A stretch of 64,000 nt of DNA, from assembly GCF_053078305.1 (NCBI RefSeq), contig NZ_CP166879.1; one strand, written 5' to 3'. The notes below the pieces were generated by a model that made no database searches, was not told the DNA's origin, and saw nothing but the letters and a program-made list of their open reading frames with translations. This document shows, one piece after another, positions 3,294 to 29,118 of the stretch (positions are counted from its first letter, which is position 1; each line of letters begins with the position of its first letter). Both the position numbers and the translations under genes were made by a program.

Positions 3294-5012
3294 TTATAAT
3301 GGAAAATACTCAAACCCCGAAGCTCCTGACGACACATACTCACCCACGCTGACTGTACGCCACTGAGAACCATCAAATGTCACCTGAAGCGGCCTGTAAG
3401 AAACCGATATCACACCATCTGCTCCTCTACTTTTCAGACCAGTAATCACAGCTCCTATACTCAGGCTTATTGACAGAAAACCAGAGCTCTCTTCTGCTCT
3501 GTAAGTCTGTTCATTACCCAGCCTGATACCCACAACCCGGCTCTTCCCGTCTGATGCCCCGGGCGGCCCCATCGGCCCGGTTTCTCCACGCTCACCTCTG
3601 GGACCGGGGTCGCCTTTCTCCCCTTTCGGTCCCTGCGCTCCCCGCGGACCAGCGGGGCCTGTTGCTCCCGTTTCACCTTTCGGACCCTGTGCTCCGGGGT
3701 CACCTTTCTCTCCTTTCGGACCGGGAACACCACCTCCTGCTGCAGCCTCTTCTGCCTTTGTTTTCGCTTCATTTGCCACATCCATTGCCGCCTTCACGGC
3801 CTTCGGCGTGGCTGCCTTTGTTTCGTCATTACTGCCAGTATCACTGCTTAACTGCACCACACCTTTCTGCGTCGTGCTGGCATCCCGCTGGCTGACCGTA
3901 TCCGGTTTGTTTTTTGTGCTGTAATCCACCCGCCAGTGGAAATACCGTGTGTCGCCGTAAACCGTACAGGTACAGACCGTGCCATTAATAAACCCCGTTG
4001 CACCGTATTCGCCAATGGTGACCCGGACTATGGCAGCCTCATACGTTCCCATCACCTCAATGACACAGCCACCCAGATTGAGTTTTCCCGGTCCGACATC
4101 CGTGATGACTTTATTCATTGACGCAAGCAGTGATGCCTTCATCATCCAGTAAGGCTGGTCAAATGCCCCTTTTTCTTTCAGCCAGGCAACAAACTCGCGT
4201 GTTTTCCATTCACCGGCCCCCGTATGAATGTCCCGCCCGTATACTCTGGCTGCTCCCACGGTGTTCAGAAACTTCACCTTATCCGGGATATCATCACCGT
4301 TTTTCGCTTTCTCCAGGCATCCGTCCGCTTTGTCCATTGCCGCTTTCACCGCTTTCGGCGTGGCTGCCTTCGTTTCATCATCACTGTCCGTTGCGCTGCT
4401 TAACTGCACAATTCCCTTCTGTGCCGTCGTCGCATCCGGCCCTCCCGGCTCGCCTTTTTCGCCCTTCTCTCCCCGTTCACCTTTCACACCCTGAAGCCCC
4501 TGTGGTCCTGTCTCACCACGCTCACCCTTTGGCCCCCGCTCGCCGGTATCGCCTTTTGGCCCGGGAATACCCTGCGGCCCGGTGTCCCCCTTATCCCCCT
4601 TCGGTCCCCGCGCATTCTCTGCCCGTTTCTTCGCTTCCTCTGCACTCGCCGCTGACGCTTCCGCACGTTTCAGGATTTCCGCTGCCACCGCTTCCAGCTC
4701 TGCAAGGGCTTTCGGGTAATACTGTGCGTCTTCCAGGTCCATCAGAAATTTATTCAGCGTTCCCGGTGCAGAATCCGCCTTCACCAGAATGTCACCCACA
4801 TATGACGGCGCGTACCCTTCCGTGTTCAGCGTCACCCGGTACAACCCCGGCTCAACATCCATACTGTAACTGCCGGTTTCCCCCGGCTGACCATACGCCA
4901 CCGTGGTGACAATCACCATCTCCGTTGTGCGGCGCGCTTTCAGCTCTATCGTGCATCCCGGTACTGGTTTTCCCGTACCATCCTTCAGCACACCCGATAT
5001 TCTGACTGTCAT
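3294..5012 (-). CDS. stf: Side tail fiber protein with collagen-like G-x-x repeats
   Basis: Two blocks of [13 protein letters not shown]... repeats; conserved [10 protein letters not shown] motif twice; follows J. Confidence 0.75.
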
Positions 5013-24236: not shown

Positions 24237-24714
24237 CGAGTAAATCCGGTAATTTATCCCCTGCCCGCGCACACTGATTTGCGCCCTTTGCAATAAGGGT
24301 TTTCAGATGGTCAATATGACGTGGCGTTAAATCCGGGAACTGTCGCTGCATGGATAACGGAATGGAATCAAGCGTACTGGACAATGCCATCGCCAGTTTG
24401 CTGAGGGCGAAAACGCAGAAGTCTGAATCGATGAGCTTACCTTCGGTTACCTGATTTTTAAGTTTTTGAGCTACAGCCTGTTCTTCTGTCAGTTCAGCTC
24501 TGGCCCGAAGCAGCCTTTCCTCCAGTTCTCCTCCGTCATCAGGTGTTCTCTGATTGTGTTGTCGCCGCTCGCGATCTATCTCCAGTACAGTTTTAACGTC
24601 ATATAAAACTTCCCTCCCCCGACGTTCAACAGGAGGAACGCCCCATTTATCAAATGCCTGAACAGAGATACCGATGGAGGAGGCCATATCACTTTTATTC
24701 AATAAAAAGGCCAT
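24208..24714 (-). CDS. nu1: Terminase small subunit Nu1; start trimmed to ATG at 24714
   Basis: ...VLYD...LPLSMQRQFPDLTPRHIDHLK... matches lambda Nu1 C-terminal half; immediately downstream of cos. Confidence 0.8.
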   Translation of the reverse strand: MAFLLNKSDMASSIGISVQAFDKWGVPPVERRGREVLYDVKTVLEIDRERRQHNQRTPDDGGELEERLLRARAELTEEQAVAQKLKNQVTEGKLIDSDFCVFALSKLAMALSSTLDSIPLSMQRQFPDLTPRHIDHLKTLIAKGANQCARAGDKLPDLLDEYIRATTE

Positions 24715-24930
24715 CTCCTCTCCATAAGTCATCGATAAAAAGCGAAACAACAACCATGTGTTTTTGCAAAACCATTTGATATCATTGACATTTTTCGCAT
24801 TGACGACATCAAAACACATCGTAAGGTTGTTGTATTGATTTTATTTTCACCTTACTTATCAAGTAGATATACCAAACAATTAAACAACAACCACCCCCTC
24901 AAAAAATCTCATAAATAGTGAAAACGCGCG

Positions 24931-24942
24931 AGGTCGCCGCCC
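24931..24942 (-). other. cosN cohesive-end sequence (GGGCGGCGACCT on minus strand)
   Basis: rc of 24911-24942 = GGGCGGCGACCTCGCGCGTTTTCACTATTTAT, near-identical to the lambda left end. Confidence 0.85.
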
Positions 24943-25201
24943 CGTAACGGGTCCATATGCCGGAAAGGACCCGAGAAAATGATAATGATTATCAGTTGCA
25001 ACAAAATCCAGTTTCTTCCACCATCGCACCGGACCAGCGACCATGAGGGGACAACGCCGCGCTCCGTTAACGCGGTAAACCCCGGTGTGTATCGTTTTTG
25101 ATTATCCCCGCACACTCGCGCAGAGGAGTCTCCCTGTCGGGCTGCGGTCTCTGTTAATGCAGGAATACGGCGACAATACCGCGCATGGATAATAAGGTCG
25201 C

Positions 25202-25426
25202 TCAACACACTGGCTGTAATGCAGCCGATACCATGCGGCATTTAGCTGCATTCATCGTACACTCAACGGTTAGCTCTTCATTCGTGGCATTCACCTGAAA
25301 GGTCCGGGAGTGTAATTGCGTACATTTACCACTGAACGAACCTTCAACAAGAACACGACCACACTGCAAAATACGGAACGGAATTGTTCCCTGAAAAGGC
25401 TTTACGGTTACCAGTAATTTCTTCAT
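25202..25426 (-). CDS. Hypothetical 74-aa protein between Rz and cos
   Basis: MKKLLVTVKPFQGTIPFRILQCGRV...; GGAG RBS 5 nt upstream of ATG at 25426. Confidence 0.4.
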   Translation of the reverse strand: MKKLLVTVKPFQGTIPFRILQCGRVLVEGSFSGKCTQLHSRTFQVNATNEELTVECTMNAAKCRMVSAALQPVC

Positions 25427-25449
25427 GCATTCTCCGGATAACAAAAATA

Positions 25450-25917
25450 CTAGTTAATACACTGAGTGCGGATATATTCCTTCGCCCCTTCCAGCTGCTT
25501 CTGCATTGTCATCAACCGTTCTCTGAGGATGAAATAATCCCGTTCAGCGGTGTCTGCCAGTCGGGGGCCGGTTGCATTATCCACGCCGGAGGTGGTGGGG
25601 GCTTCACGCACGGAGCCTGGACAGGTGGCTTTAACCCGCAGGCGCTTACGACCAGCGGCAACATCAGCACGCAGAGTTTCATTTTCAGCTCTCGCATCGG
25701 CTAATTCCCTCGAGTATTTAGCATCGAGCGCAGCAACATCGCGCTGGCGCTGCTGCATATCAGTAATGGTTGCGTTTGCCAGCTCCAGCTCTCTGGCTTT
25801 TTTATCGCGCTGCGCTTTGTAGGTGATGGCGTTATCGCGGTAATGATTCAGCCCCAGACTAAGCGCACCACAGGCCACCAGCAGGACAATAATCACCACA
25901 CACAGAACACGGTTCAT
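25450..25917 (-). CDS. Rz: i-spanin Rz
   Basis: ...[45 protein letters not shown]... matches lambda Rz. Confidence 0.9.
25512..25697 (-). CDS. Rz1: o-spanin Rz1 lipoprotein, embedded in +1 frame of Rz
   Basis: ...[27 protein letters not shown]... matches lambda Rz1; lipobox VSAC. Confidence 0.85.
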
Positions 25918-26849
25918 ATCACCACCATTTCACTGTTTTCTTTTTCCAGACGTTTTTTTGCAACAGCGAAATACCGGTCATCCTTTTCTATTCCGGTAAA
26001 CCGTCTCCCCGTCCGGATACATGCAACACCTGTTGAACCACTCCCCATAGTAAAATCCAGTACCCTGTCGCCAGGGTTGCTGTACGTCTGAATCAGCTCT
26101 TCCAGTAATGCAACTGGCTTCTGGGTCGGATGCCATCGCTCCCGCTCCCGCGCGTACTCCAGAATATTTGCGCGGTATTTTTTCCCCTGAGGGAGATTAA
26201 AAACCACAGTGCCGTAACCGGAATTCACTTTGCACATTTCTTCATATGTCATGAAACCCGGCATACGGTCGATACCAAAGCGTTTAATTAACTCGTTGTA
26301 CGTATCCTGTGAGCAGAGGGAAAACTGGACTGTGTTCACGCGAAAAAAATGCTCTGCCCGACAGTGCCCCAGTGTTTTGTTAACTTCCTTGTCTGTCCTG
26401 TGGCCAATGAAAGAAAGGATATTTCGGGCGTACTCCCTCAGCGGGTGGTTTTTCTCACTGTCATATTTTTTCCGGAAAACAACGATATCCTCGAATAAAG
26501 ATACAGGTGCTTTTTTTACTGAAAGCGGGTTGGGGAAATGCTCCTTCTTCCACACCATACGATATAAAAACGGCAGGTTTTTATCCGCCAGAGTAATCAT
26601 CGTGCTTGTATGCGGCTCCTGGCTGAACATGACCAGCACACCGCCCACCCTCAGCAGTCGTTCGCACTGTGTGAAAATATCTTCAGGATTTAAGGCATCG
26701 TCCCATGCTGTCGTACTCTTATCCCATGTACGGAGTGTAAGCCCTTTAATGGTTCCATACGGCGGGTCACATAAAACCAGGTCAACACTTCCCGGTAGTA
26801 ATGAAGGCATAACATCAAGACAGTCACCGGAATACAGTACACATTTCAT
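25914..26849 (-). CDS. DNA methyltransferase, beta-class (DPPY, N6-adenine or N4-cytosine); stop overlaps Rz start
   Basis: [10 protein letters not shown] near N-terminus; HPTQKP and FTMGSGSTG (SAM-binding) near C-terminus; ATGA overlap with Rz. Confidence 0.75.
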
Positions 26850-26856
26850 GTTTCTG

Positions 26857-26988
26857 TCACCCCACCAGCCCTGACAGAGTTAAGACGCGCCAGGCAGTGG
26901 AAAAGCAAATAGCAACCAGCATTAGTGAAAATGAAATGCCGACGATTACACAGAGGATCTTCGCCAGCATTATGAGTTTGTCTGACAT
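26857..26988 (-). CDS. Small single-pass membrane peptide (43 aa)
   Basis: MSDKLIMLAKILCVIVGISFSLMLVAICF...; GGGAGG RBS; ends 5 nt before the MTase start. Confidence 0.45.
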   Translation of the reverse strand: MSDKLIMLAKILCVIVGISFSLMLVAICFSTAWRVLTLSGLVG

Positions 26989-27002
26989 GTTTAATCCTCC
27001 CT

Positions 27003-27185
27003 TCACGATTTCAACGCAATGACCAGTTTTGCCAGCCCATACAGCATCGGAGACACAGCGATACCGACCGCCACCCACTTAATAGCAAAAGCCAGTGCTC
27101 TGCTGATGTCATCAGTTACTGGCGCTTTCAGTTCAAGGCCGTTTTTCATAGTCAACCTCAACAGAATTCGTTTATACTTTTCCAT
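27003..27185 (-). CDS. Small membrane protein (60 aa from ATG 27185; track ORF uses GTG at 27218)
   Basis: MEKYKRILLRLTMKNGLELKAPV...IKWVAVGIAVSPMLYGLAKLVIALKS; GGGAG RBS; C-terminal TM helix. Confidence 0.45.
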   Translation of the reverse strand: MEKYKRILLRLTMKNGLELKAPVTDDISRALAFAIKWVAVGIAVSPMLYGLAKLVIALKS

Positions 27186-27227
27186 GTTCTCCCTTGCCTT
27201 ATCCAAGGTCAGAAACACAAAACCCCG

Positions 27228-27341: not shown

Positions 27342-27875
27342 TTATCTGTCGATTTCCCAGCACGCCAGCGCGCTCTCCTGGTCTCTCCGGGATACCTGAC
27401 CGTAACAGTTATTTGAGCGAATACGGCAGTCTCTGCCACCGTCCTTAATCCACCAGCGAATCGCCTCACACGCTCCCCTGCGATCGCCTGCATTAATTCG
27501 TTTATAAAACGTCGACGGGAAACACTTACCTGGGCCAATGTTGTAAGGACAGAATGACGCGATCCCCGCTTTCTGGGGTTCAGTCAGTGGCACTTTGATG
27601 TTTTTCGCCACCCATGCCAGCGCCTTATCACGTTCAATGGCGTTAACCTGGTCGCATTTTTCCTTCGACAGCTTCATGCCAGGGACGACAGGCTTACCAT
27701 CCACCCGGGTGGCACCACGGCAGATGGTCCAGATACCCGCACCATCACGGTATGCCGTGCTGTGGTTACCTTCTTTTTCGTCAAGAAACTGGTCGAGGAT
27801 TTCAGGCGCAGGCGCACCTGCGGCAATCAGCGCCAGAACAGCAGCTGACAGGCCGTATTTGATTTTTGCGTTCAT
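27342..27875 (-). CDS. R: SAR endolysin (phage lysozyme with N-terminal signal-anchor-release domain)
   Basis: N-terminal weakly hydrophobic Gly/Ala-rich TM (LSAAVLALIAAGAPAPE) then lysozyme-like body; pinholin partner upstream. Confidence 0.8.
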   Translation of the reverse strand: MNAKIKYGLSAAVLALIAAGAPAPEILDQFLDEKEGNHSTAYRDGAGIWTICRGATRVDGKPVVPGMKLSKEKCDQVNAIERDKALAWVAKNIKVPLTEPQKAGIASFCPYNIGPGKCFPSTFYKRINAGDRRGACEAIRWWIKDGGRDCRIRSNNCYGQVSRRDQESALACWEIDR

Positions 27876-27911: not shown

Positions 27912-28898
27912 CTAAATACGCACTTTAAGATAAGTCAGCCCCGGCTGGATCCAGCCATCAGGCTCTTTCTTAAAGGGTGGCGTATTGAAATCACAAAGAA
28001 GAGCCTCCCGCACCGCAGCATCCCTGTCTGCACCACTGGCAAGTGCTTCAATCTCTGCCGCCAGCTGCAGATATCCCATGCAGCGACCAATGCGCTTCAT
28101 CAGCCCCTGTTTTTTATTGTTCTTCAGGTAATCAATGGCAAATTCAATGAGCGTCTCACTGTGCTGGTGCGATGGCGGTGTTACTTTTCCATTTTCTGAT
28201 ATGGTGATTTTCCCGTCATCACCGGATACAACAAAGGATGGCCGGTTACACTCCCGTTCCTGGTTTTTGTCCGACACAGGCACAGTAAAATCACTTTCAT
28301 GCCCGTTTTTACGACAGTCCTCGCCACGTACCGCAGCAAATACCGACAAGGCATACTCCTTTGCTCTCGCTTCATAGTCGCTGAATGTTGTTTTCGGATC
28401 GTAGTCTTCCCTGTACATAACCGACAGAACTTCCTCATGATCAATATGAACACTGACCACGCTGCCTATTCTTTTGGTCAGCACAAGACGAGAATCTTCC
28501 CCGACTTTCACTCCTGGTGTCACACGTGCCGGAAGCTCCACATTAACCATCGCGCTCTGCACATCATCAGGCGCATTTTTTACCGGTTCGTTGACCTTTT
28601 CACGCCCCGGGTAAGTGGCGATTTTTTCCGGCATTGTCCATGAAGAAATATTCTGAAAGCCACATCGCGCAGTCCCTTCGCGTAATCCGAGAGCCGCATC
28701 CATGAAAAACTGCTTCGCCTGTTTTTTCGCCTCAGCTTCGTAAAATTCCAGCGTGGCACCTTCAGTACGGTCAAGACTAATCGCCACATATGGCGACAAC
28801 AACGACGGCTGACCGGCAATTTCCAGTGCCACCGTAACAGTTATCTTATCCGGGTAATGATTTATCCCTTTTACAACCAGTTCATATTTGTTATTCAT
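27912..28898 (-). CDS. Unknown 328-aa protein inserted between holin and endolysin
   Basis: MNNKYELVVKGINHYPDKITVTVALEIAG...; GGGGAGAG RBS; start 5 nt after S stop; no TM or signal peptide; no motif I can assign. Confidence 0.7.
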   Translation of the reverse strand: MNNKYELVVKGINHYPDKITVTVALEIAGQPSLLSPYVAISLDRTEGATLEFYEAEAKKQAKQFFMDAALGLREGTARCGFQNISSWTMPEKIATYPGREKVNEPVKNAPDDVQSAMVNVELPARVTPGVKVGEDSRLVLTKRIGSVVSVHIDHEEVLSVMYREDYDPKTTFSDYEARAKEYALSVFAAVRGEDCRKNGHESDFTVPVSDKNQERECNRPSFVVSGDDGKITISENGKVTPPSHQHSETLIEFAIDYLKNNKKQGLMKRIGRCMGYLQLAAEIEALASGADRDAAVREALLCDFNTPPFKKEPDGWIQPGLTYLKVRI

Positions 28899-28902
28899 CG
28901 CT

Positions 28903-29118
28903 TTACTCTCCCCGGGCCGCCTTACGCCGGTCTTCTCTGATTTTAAAATACAGGTTCGTCAGGTATGTCAGCAGACCAAACAGCAGACTCCCCAGCACGC
29001 CTATTGCCGCCCACTGAGACGGGGAAACCCTGTCCAGCAACTGCAGGAACCAGTAGCCCGTTCCCACCGCTGACGTGGTGTATGACACACCTGTTGTGAT
29101 TTTTTCCATCTGGTACAT
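28903..29118 (-). CDS. S: Class II pinholin (phage 21 S-like), dual-start motif MYQMEK
   Basis: ...[51 protein letters not shown] matches S21; GGGAGACGGGG RBS. Confidence 0.85.

What the first reader, a model, noticed from the sequence alone, without database searches (positions are those of the whole stretch)
25202..25426. 74-aa ORF with good RBS in the Bor position between Rz and cos
It has a good RBS and coding-like composition but lacks a lipoprotein signal, so it is not Bor-like. It is an unassigned small protein at a classic moron site.
Basis: seen in the sequence. Interest (0 to 1): 0.25.

Follow-up and report, generated by a model that had tools for sequence, protein, structure and literature searches.

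The report
Orphan small phage protein after Rz
The 74-codon ORF is a real, conserved late-operon phage gene for a small cytoplasmic β-sandwich protein of unknown function, apparently the surviving half of a mobile two-gene cassette; it is an ordinary accessory gene already listed in databases as "hypothetical protein".

Summary
There is a 74-aa ORF on the minus strand (ATG 25426, TGA 25202-25204), with GGAG 5 nt upstream and 23 nt after the Rz stop, between Rz and cosN. It is a genuine gene. It occurs in 1,191 of 5,426 complete E. coli genomes, has 74-aa homologues in Salmonella and ~72-82-aa relatives in Yersinia, and shows dN/dS of 0.23-0.51 without indels. It belongs to PHROG 2571 (unknown function).

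It has no signal peptide or lipobox and no similarity to Bor. AlphaFold gives a confident small β-sandwich (pLDDT 90) with only generic fold matches. Comparison with other lambdoid phages shows it sits in the same variable slot that elsewhere holds Bor, Rha or nothing. No promoter-like site is found, so it is probably read from the late transcript.

Three results are new here:
- In other enterobacterial phages the family gene is followed (75 of 79 loci) by a conserved ~70-aa partner (PHROG 4280). The two are predicted to form a heterodimer.
- The window lineage has lost the partner.
- The orphan gene evolves with weak protein-level constraint.

Function remains unknown. Directly downstream lies a widespread, unannotated ~180-nt conserved element with covariation support for RNA structure. 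That element may be the more interesting object.

The parts
25202..25426 (-). 74-aa ORF including the TGA stop. Member of PHROG 2571. Predicted small cytoplasmic all-beta sandwich.
25432..25435 (-). Shine-Dalgarno GGAG, 5-nt spacer to the ATG.
   Evidence: sequence read directly. Invariant in the 5-phage alignment A2.
25427..25449 (-). 23-nt gap between the Rz stop (TAG 25450-25452) and the ORF ATG. No room for a promoter. In other alleles the gap is replaced by an ATGA overlap.
25450..25917 (-). Rz i-spanin (PF03245) with embedded Rz1 (25512-25697). It is the upstream neighbour that defines the slot.
25005..25186 (-). Adjacent but separate feature: a conserved ~180-nt non-coding element that bounds the slot on the 3' side. 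Likely a structured RNA on the late strand.
24931..24942 (.). cosN cohesive-end sequence (lambda type), the distal landmark of the Rz-cos gap.
   Evidence: sequence read directly. Nu1 and gpA lie downstream.

Best explanation
The ORF is a genuine, non-essential accessory gene of the prophage's late operon. It is most likely transcribed together with S, R and Rz from the late promoter (inferred). It is translated from its own GGAG, or in other alleles by coupling to the Rz stop (shown from sequence). The product is a soluble cytoplasmic 74-aa beta-sandwich protein (predicted). It occupies the variable cargo slot between Rz and a conserved ~180-nt element that precedes the packaging module. In other phages this slot holds Bor, Rha or nothing (shown). 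The protein is the first gene of a mobile two-gene cassette, PHROG 2571 followed by PHROG 4280, found in Escherichia, Salmonella, Yersinia and related temperate phages (shown). The two products are predicted to form a defined heterodimer (AlphaFold prediction, no experimental support). In the window's lineage the partner has been lost and the first gene persists alone (shown). The most likely mode of action is as a small protein-binding module: a binder or inhibitor of the partner-type protein, or of another phage or host protein, made late in infection (inferred). It is not a lipoprotein, not a spanin and not an enzyme. Its molecular target and physiological role are unknown.
Against: There is no direct evidence of transcription or translation. 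No functional annotation exists in any library. The fold matches are generic. The complex prediction rests on pTM alone, since no PAE or interface metrics were available. Within the close orphan clade the gene shows 18 non-synonymous against 6 synonymous polymorphic codons, versus 31:67, 12:26 and 13:24 for R, Nu1 and holin. One polymorphism changes C56, which is invariant in alignment A1 (C56Y). The O55:H7 allele differs by 17 non-synonymous and 4 synonymous changes. The orphan may therefore be under relaxed constraint. The promoter scan uses only a consensus and cannot exclude a weak or non-sigma-70 promoter inside Rz.
Confidence: 0.55

Rival explanations
1. Decaying remnant. After the partner gene was lost, the orphan ORF no longer has a function. 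It survives only because too little time has passed for it to be disrupted.
For: The non-synonymous:synonymous polymorphism ratio is 18:6, against about 0.5:1 in neighbouring essential genes. omega is about 1.3 between the window and O55:H7 alleles. There are substitutions at otherwise invariant residues such as C56Y, F11L and P16L. The partner is absent in 80 of 80 window-type loci.
Against: Orphan alleles that diverged to dS about 0.5 still show omega 0.26-0.33 (window, L001 and L092 versus L087). There is no stop, frameshift or lost start in 109 copies of 33 alleles. The RBS and start context are invariant. The orphan form has spread to over 1,000 genomes. Elevated dN/dS among very close sequences is expected from unpurged polymorphism (established knowledge, Rocha et al. 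2006, from memory).
Confidence: 0.2
2. Lysis accessory. The protein regulates or assists the holin-endolysin-spanin pathway from the cytoplasmic side, comparable in logic to cytoplasmic antiholin cofactors.
For: It lies immediately after Rz, with a translationally coupled start in several alleles. The cassette lies next to lysis genes in at least 18 of 38 representative loci, and just upstream of the holin in L094 and L095.
Against: The same cassette occurs inside tail modules (8 loci) and after Q. Related phages with the same Rz have Bor, Rha or nothing in the slot, so lysis does not need it. It has no membrane segment. Both flanks of the lysis cassette are known insertion sites for cargo genes (Juhala et al. 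2000, as quoted in PMC4104026).
Confidence: 0.12
3. Lysogenic-conversion moron. Like Bor, it is expressed from the repressed prophage and benefits the host cell.
For: It occupies exactly the Bor slot. It is present mainly in pathogenic and STEC lineages.
Against: It has the opposite orientation to bor and is co-oriented with the late operon. No promoter-like or terminator-like signal flanks it. There is an ATGA overlap with Rz in some alleles. It has no export signal, so no surface role.
Confidence: 0.08
4. Chance ORF. It is not a gene, and its conservation reflects the neighbouring RNA element or Rz.
For: ORFs of this size are common in the window.
Against: The ORF is more divergent in nucleotide sequence than its flanks (82% against 94-96%), yet keeps its frame, length, start and stop. 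Changes are enriched at third positions and dN/dS is below 0.5. Distant relatives at 24-40% identity are recognisable by profile. The AF2 fold is confident.
Confidence: 0.02

Closest known systems
PHROG 2571 (phage protein family of unknown function)
   Same: HMM match E=1.7e-27 over residues 1-73. Distant relatives from Yersinia and metagenomes match the same profile region.
   Different: The profile is 291 columns long because some members, such as the 280-aa P0069, carry N- and C-terminal extensions. The window protein is the bare central domain. The family has no assigned function.
Lambda Bor (lipoprotein moron between Rz and cos)
   Same: The same genomic slot, bounded by Rz and the conserved downstream element.
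   Different: No sequence similarity. No signal peptide or lipobox. Opposite orientation. No promoter of its own detected. Predicted to be cytoplasmic.
Small beta-sandwich binding modules (CBM35/CBM6, PNGase F N-domain, hemocyanin C-terminal domain, lambda gpJ domain, PBSX XepA)
Two-gene small-protein cassettes with a fast-evolving first gene and a conserved second gene (for example type II toxin-antitoxin pairs)
   Same: Tandem co-oriented ~70-80-aa genes 34-78 nt apart. The first gene diverges to 24-40% identity while the second stays at about 57-87%. A heterodimer is predicted. Orphan first genes exist.
   Different: No match to any PADLOC, Pfam or NCBIfam toxin, antitoxin or defence model. 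The first protein lacks a DNA-binding fold. The family is confined to late regions of temperate phages. Toxicity has not been tested.

Membership tests
Bor lipoprotein family | Sequence similarity to Bor | tested here: not met
   BLASTP against Bor of Stx2 phage II: no alignment at E<=100. No Pfam hit.
Bor lipoprotein family | Signal peptide with a lipobox cysteine | tested here: not met
   The N-terminus MKKLLVTVKPFQG has no hydrophobic core. C22 follows ILQ and is R, P, H or N in other alleles. Residues 2-8 form a strand of the fold.
Bor lipoprotein family | Transcribed against the late operon | tested here: not met
   The ORF is co-oriented with S, R, Rz, Nu1 and A. bor is on the opposite strand in L104 and L105.
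PHROG 2571 | Significant match to the family HMM | tested here: met
   E=1.7e-27, 97.4 bits, residues 1-73.
PHROG 2571 + PHROG 4280 two-gene cassette | Partner gene immediately downstream on the same strand | tested here: not met
   tblastn of partner proteins against the window finds nothing better than E=1.1. 0 of 80 window-type loci have the partner.
Moron in the strict sense (autonomous transcription unit, Juhala et al. 2000) | Present or absent between otherwise homologous flanks | tested here: met
   The slot holds the ORF, Bor, Rha or nothing.
Moron in the strict sense (autonomous transcription unit, Juhala et al. 2000) | Own promoter and terminator | tested here: not met
   0 promoter-like sites in 24700-26000. 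The single terminator-like hit lies inside the ORF. This is a consensus scan only.
Spanin / lysis protein | Membrane anchor (TM helix or lipobox), or a Pfam lysis family match | tested here: not met
   No TM segment or lipobox (sequence). No Pfam match.
Known anti-phage defence or toxin-antitoxin components | Match to a PADLOC, Pfam or NCBIfam model | tested here: not met
   No hits for the ORF, two distant relatives or the partner.
Carbohydrate-binding-module-like beta-sandwich | Fold match with conserved ligand-binding site | tested here: inconclusive

The most novel reading that the evidence does not exclude
The 74-aa protein is an orphan 'antidote'. In the complete cassette the fast-evolving beta-sandwich protein neutralises the conserved PHROG 4280 partner, which acts as an effector. 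Phages that keep only the first gene would use it, late in infection, to disarm partner-type effectors encoded by co-resident or competing prophages. STEC genomes carry many lambdoid prophages. This would be a new inter-prophage conflict system. It would explain both the orphan's spread and its rapid amino-acid evolution.
Probability: 0.1. Interest if true: 0.6.

Novelty: new member of a known kind. Interest (0 to 1): 0.3.

Why it matters
The ORF itself adds one more uncharacterised accessory protein to the cargo slot between the lysis and packaging genes of lambdoid and Stx phages. It is already annotated as a hypothetical protein in thousands of genomes, so the find is modest.

Three things are useful. 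First, the slot's architecture is now defined: Rz, then variable cargo, then the conserved ~180-nt element, then the packaging module. Second, two PHROG families of unknown function (2571 and 4280) are linked as a mobile, probably heterodimeric, two-gene cassette with orphan derivatives. That gives a concrete and cheap experiment: co-expression, toxicity and pull-down. Third, a widespread, unannotated and apparently structured RNA-like element lies next to the ORF. It is present in about one third of complete E. coli genomes and in most Stx phages, and it deserves its own study.

Tried and rejected
- **Family and structure libraries.** Pfam, NCBIfam and PADLOC scans of the ORF gave no hits. 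PDB sequence searches with the single sequence and with profiles gave nothing significant; the partner's best hit is the DamX SPOR domain at E=0.28. Foldseek against BFVD gave nothing at E<0.06. AFDB50 was not available.
- **Spurious profile hits.** Two multi-stretch hits of the exhaustive profile search, P0065 (cystatin repeats) and P0080 (DUF5122 propeller), were rejected as scores inflated by repeats.
- **Known sRNAs.** I asked whether the downstream element is a known sRNA. Rfam 15 finds nothing in the window or in five divergent copies. AgvB, AsxR and PasA/C/D lie at the pR' moron site upstream of the lysis genes. PasB maps between the tail genes I and J of E2348/69 on the opposite strand. 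None corresponds to the element.
- **Coding potential of the element.** Indels that are not multiples of three and the pairing-preserving changes argue against it.
- **Folding energy of the element.** It is not exceptional on either strand, with z = 0.33 and 0.22.
- **Literature.** Searches for the protein or for an RNA 'downstream of Rz' found nothing specific.
- **Technical note.** A name collision of 'window' in /data broke two scripts. They were rerun correctly.

Full report
**1. Observation**

GGAG lies at 25432-25435, 5 nt before the ATG. The Rz stop (TAG, 25450-25452) is 23 nt upstream.

The neighbours were confirmed by Pfam:
- P21-type holin (28906-29118)
- a DUF1327 protein (27912-28898)
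- lysozyme (27342-27875)
- an N6/N4 DNA methylase (25914-26849)
- Rz (25450-25917, with Rz1 at 25512-25697)
- beyond the lambda-type cosN sequence at 24931-24942, Nu1 and gpA

All of these are on the minus strand. An ORF of this size with a GGAG is not significant by itself, since 75 ORFs of 30 aa or more overlap this 7-kb stretch. The case has to rest on comparison with other sequences.

**2. It is a real gene**

The DNA occurs in 1,191 of 5,426 complete E. coli genomes, where PGAP annotates a 'hypothetical protein' next to the 'lysis protein'. It also occurs in 26 phage records, mostly Stx-converting phages. Protein homologues are almost all 74 aa long. They come from E. coli and Salmonella and fall to 55-62% identity, with 21 invariant columns. 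The exact sequence is on 75 contigs, and every source calls it hypothetical.

Pairwise Nei-Gojobori analysis of six divergent alleles gives dN/dS of 0.23-0.51 at dS 0.3-0.83. Differences are enriched at third codon positions and there are no indels. This holds between alleles that all lack the partner gene described below: L087 against window, L001 and L092 gives omega 0.26-0.33. All 33 distinct full-length alleles in the loci I hold (115 copies) start with ATG and end with TGA.

**3. What the protein looks like**

Pfam, NCBIfam, PADLOC and PDB sequence searches find nothing. PHROGs places it in phrog_2571, of unknown function (E=1.7e-27). It matches columns 100-172 of a 291-column profile. 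The extra columns come from long members such as the 280-aa P0069, which matches end to end. The window protein is therefore the bare core domain, not a fragment.

There is no signal peptide, membrane segment or lipobox. C22 is R, P, H or N in other alleles, and residues 2-8 are a strand of the fold. BLASTP against Bor gives no alignment. The protein is therefore predicted to be soluble and cytoplasmic, and the fold suggests a binding module rather than an enzyme.

**4. Where it sits: the Bor slot**

Aligning the region from five phages showed two things. The ORF is more variable than its flanks: window against Stx2_EH1846 gives Rz 94%, ORF 82% and downstream 96%. Also, the ~180 nt starting 15 nt after the stop codon (window ~25005-25186) are almost invariant, after which homology ends abruptly and each phage continues with a different packaging module.

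That element is present in 398 phage records and always lies just before the packaging genes. Between Rz and the element the cargo varies:
- bor on the opposite strand in Stx2 phage II and ev207
- rha in P13374 and ES18
- nothing in VT2-Sakai
- the 74-aa ORF in the window, ASU11, PPyecE_EH1910, Stx2_EH1846, an O55:H7 prophage and EPEC E2348/69

Unlike bor, the ORF is co-oriented with the late operon. A consensus scan finds no promoter-like site in 24700-26000 (1.9 expected by chance) and no terminator after the ORF. In several alleles the ATG overlaps the Rz stop as ATGA. The simplest reading is late-operon transcription, with translation that is either independent or coupled to Rz. It is not an autonomous moron. 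This step is inferred, not shown.

**5. A two-gene cassette and an orphan**

An exhaustive profile search of 1.8 billion representative proteins found only about 45 hits. Among them are relatives of ~72-82 aa from Yersinia and metagenomes, plus a few proteins with extensions. Two repeat proteins were rejected as spurious.

In the contexts of these distant relatives, and of the Salmonella 66% homologue, the family gene is followed by a conserved gene of ~68-73 aa: MFV..GLK.DPDN.GWV.GW.VVR..PWHL.GVYATK..AE.K..LG..YE..YGSHR.GSDDF. This partner is phrog_4280, also of unknown function.

I searched viral contigs for the partner and then looked upstream. In 75 of the 79 loci that have upstream sequence, a family member lies 34-78 nt upstream on the same strand. 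This yields 42 unique pairs. The partner is much better conserved (57-87% identity) than the family protein (24-68% identity to the window's).

The two configurations exclude each other:

| Locus set | With RNA element | With partner |
|---|---|---|
| 80 window-type loci | 78 | 0 |
| 80 partner loci | 0 | 80 |

These counts are. tblastn of the partner against the window finds nothing, and one E. coli allele (L088) has an N-terminally degraded partner.

A linker-fused AlphaFold run on a 29-row paired alignment gave pTM 0.74 for 174 residues. Both halves were at pLDDT 93-95 and the 30-residue linker was below 50. Two independent ~70-residue domains could not produce a pTM that high, so a defined heterodimer is predicted. 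This rests on pTM alone, because no PAE was available.

The cassette is mobile. Among 38 representative loci it lies just after lysis genes in at least 18 (holin, lysozyme, GH19, M15 peptidase, Rz, DUF2514). It lies inside a tail module in 8 (tail terminator, tail tube, DUF6246) and directly after Q in at least 2. In L094 and L095 it lies just upstream of the holin. This argues for an autonomous accessory function rather than a dedicated lysis role.

**6. Constraint on the orphan**

I compared polymorphic codons within clades of at least 93% nucleotide identity, using the same loci for all genes:

| Gene | Codons with aa change | Synonymous-only codons |
|---|---|---|
| 74-aa ORF | 18 | 6 |
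| R lysozyme | 31 | 67 |
| Nu1 | 12 | 26 |
| Holin | 13 | 24 |
| Rz (carries the embedded Rz1 frame) | 34 | 21 |

The O55:H7 allele differs from the window's by 17 non-synonymous and 4 synonymous changes. That has P=0.003 if omega were 0.3, and is compatible with omega=1. Variants include changes at otherwise invariant residues, such as C56Y.

The orphan is therefore evolving under weak constraint or diversifying selection, and my data cannot tell these apart. Two points argue that it is not simply dead: purifying selection at deeper divergence, and the complete absence of disrupted copies.

**7. Most likely mechanism and rivals**

Best supported (confidence 0.55 for the package): a non-essential, late-expressed, cytoplasmic beta-sandwich binder. 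It is the orphaned first half of a PHROG 2571/4280 heterodimeric cassette and sits in the Rz-cos cargo slot. The molecular target is unknown.

| Rival | Confidence |
|---|---|
| Functionless remnant | 0.20 |
| Cytoplasmic lysis accessory | 0.12 |
| Bor-like lysogenic-conversion moron | 0.08 |
| Chance ORF | 0.02 |

The most novel reading not excluded (probability ~0.1) is that the first gene is an antidote to a PHROG 4280 effector. Orphans would then serve to disarm cassettes of competing prophages.

**8. Comparison with what is known**

The protein is a member of PHROG 2571 (tested and met). It is not a member of the Bor family; sequence, lipobox and orientation were all tested and not met. 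It is not a spanin and not a recognisable defence or TA component. It meets the 'variable presence' criterion of a moron but not the 'own promoter and terminator' criterion. The two-gene organisation resembles TA-like pairs in logic only.

I found no paper on this protein or on the cassette. The gene is already annotated everywhere as a hypothetical protein, so the finding is ordinary. The link between the two families and the definition of the slot are the new pieces.

**9. The neighbouring element**

The ~180-nt element (window ~25005-25186, late strand) occurs at 4,484 places in 1,853 of 5,426 complete E. coli genomes, up to nine per genome, and is never annotated. Its indels are not multiples of three.

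An internal hairpin appears in at least six sequence versions that all preserve pairing:
- CCGCG/CGCGG
- UCUCAU/AUGGGA
- CACGU/ACGUG
- CAGC/GCUG
- CGGCGA/UCGCUG
- CUGUG/CGCAG

A 5' hairpin also shows compensatory variants.

On a 15-sequence alignment, the RNAalifold structure of 43 pairs has 96.3% of cells paired, against 40-55% when the partners are slid. It has 8 pairs with changes on both sides, against 0-4 in the slid controls. None of 500 shuffles reaches the observed values. The G.U pairs fit the late strand only.

There are caveats. The structure was derived from the same alignment. Single-sequence folding energy is unremarkable, with z = 0.33. Rfam 15 has no match for it, and it is not AgvB, AsxR or any Pas sRNA. 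In VT2-Sakai it is covered by a called ORF, orf48, annotated 'Rz-like spanin', which is probably a mis-annotation. I consider this element more interesting than the ORF, and it merits separate evaluation.

Noticed in passing
window ~25005-25186 (minus/late strand): A conserved ~180-nt non-coding element lies directly 3' of the ORF and just upstream of cos. It is present in 398 phage records and at 4,484 places in 1,853 of 5,426 E. coli genomes, is never annotated, and has no Rfam match. Covariation supports a multi-helix RNA fold (96.3% paired against 40-55% in slid controls, 8 pairs with double changes). Folding-energy z-score is not significant. It is not AgvB, AsxR or PasA-D.
   Followed up: partly
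L106-L185; also L083, L084, L090, L094, L098, L099: There is a conserved two-gene cassette of PHROG 2571 (the finding's family) followed by PHROG 4280 (~70 aa, motif GWV.GW.VVR..PWHL.GVYATK...YGSHR.GSDDF). The two are adjacent in 75 of 79 loci. AF2 predicts a heterodimer (pTM 0.74 for the linker fusion). The cassette is found after lysis genes, inside tail modules and after Q.
   Followed up: partly
window 25914-26849 (-), 27912-28898 (-), 26857-27218 (-): The lysis cassette is interrupted by cargo. A 311-aa N6/N4 DNA methylase (PF01555) has its stop overlapping the Rz start. A 328-aa protein with an N-terminal DUF1327 domain lies between holin and lysozyme. Two small, hydrophobic-looking ORFs (71 and 73 aa) lie between lysozyme and the methylase.
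   Followed up: no
L101 1979-2239 (VT2-Sakai orf48, NP_050547.1): An 86-aa CDS annotated 'Rz-like spanin' lies on top of the conserved RNA-like element. Given the element's non-coding substitution pattern, this is probably a mis-annotation. The 110-aa ORF at window 24909-25241, which crosses the element and cos, is likewise probably spurious.
   Followed up: partly
L094 3699-3941: In a phage where the cassette sits upstream of the holin, the after-Rz slot instead holds an 80-aa protein with a weak Acb2_Tad1_hairpin Pfam hit. The ATG of this gene overlaps the Rz stop. This hints that the slot can carry anti-defence cargo.
   Followed up: no
P0003 (125 aa): One database protein fuses a DUF1737 domain (PF08410) directly to the N-terminus of the 74-aa protein. 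This suggests that in some prophages a DUF1737 gene lies immediately upstream in the same frame, or that the stop was lost.
   Followed up: no
window 25202-25426 versus L092 4001-4225 (O55:H7 CB9615 prophage): A burst of amino-acid change separates two otherwise close alleles: 17 non-synonymous against 4 synonymous differences, while the flanks are ~90% identical. The cause is unexplained and could be relaxed or positive selection.
   Followed up: partly
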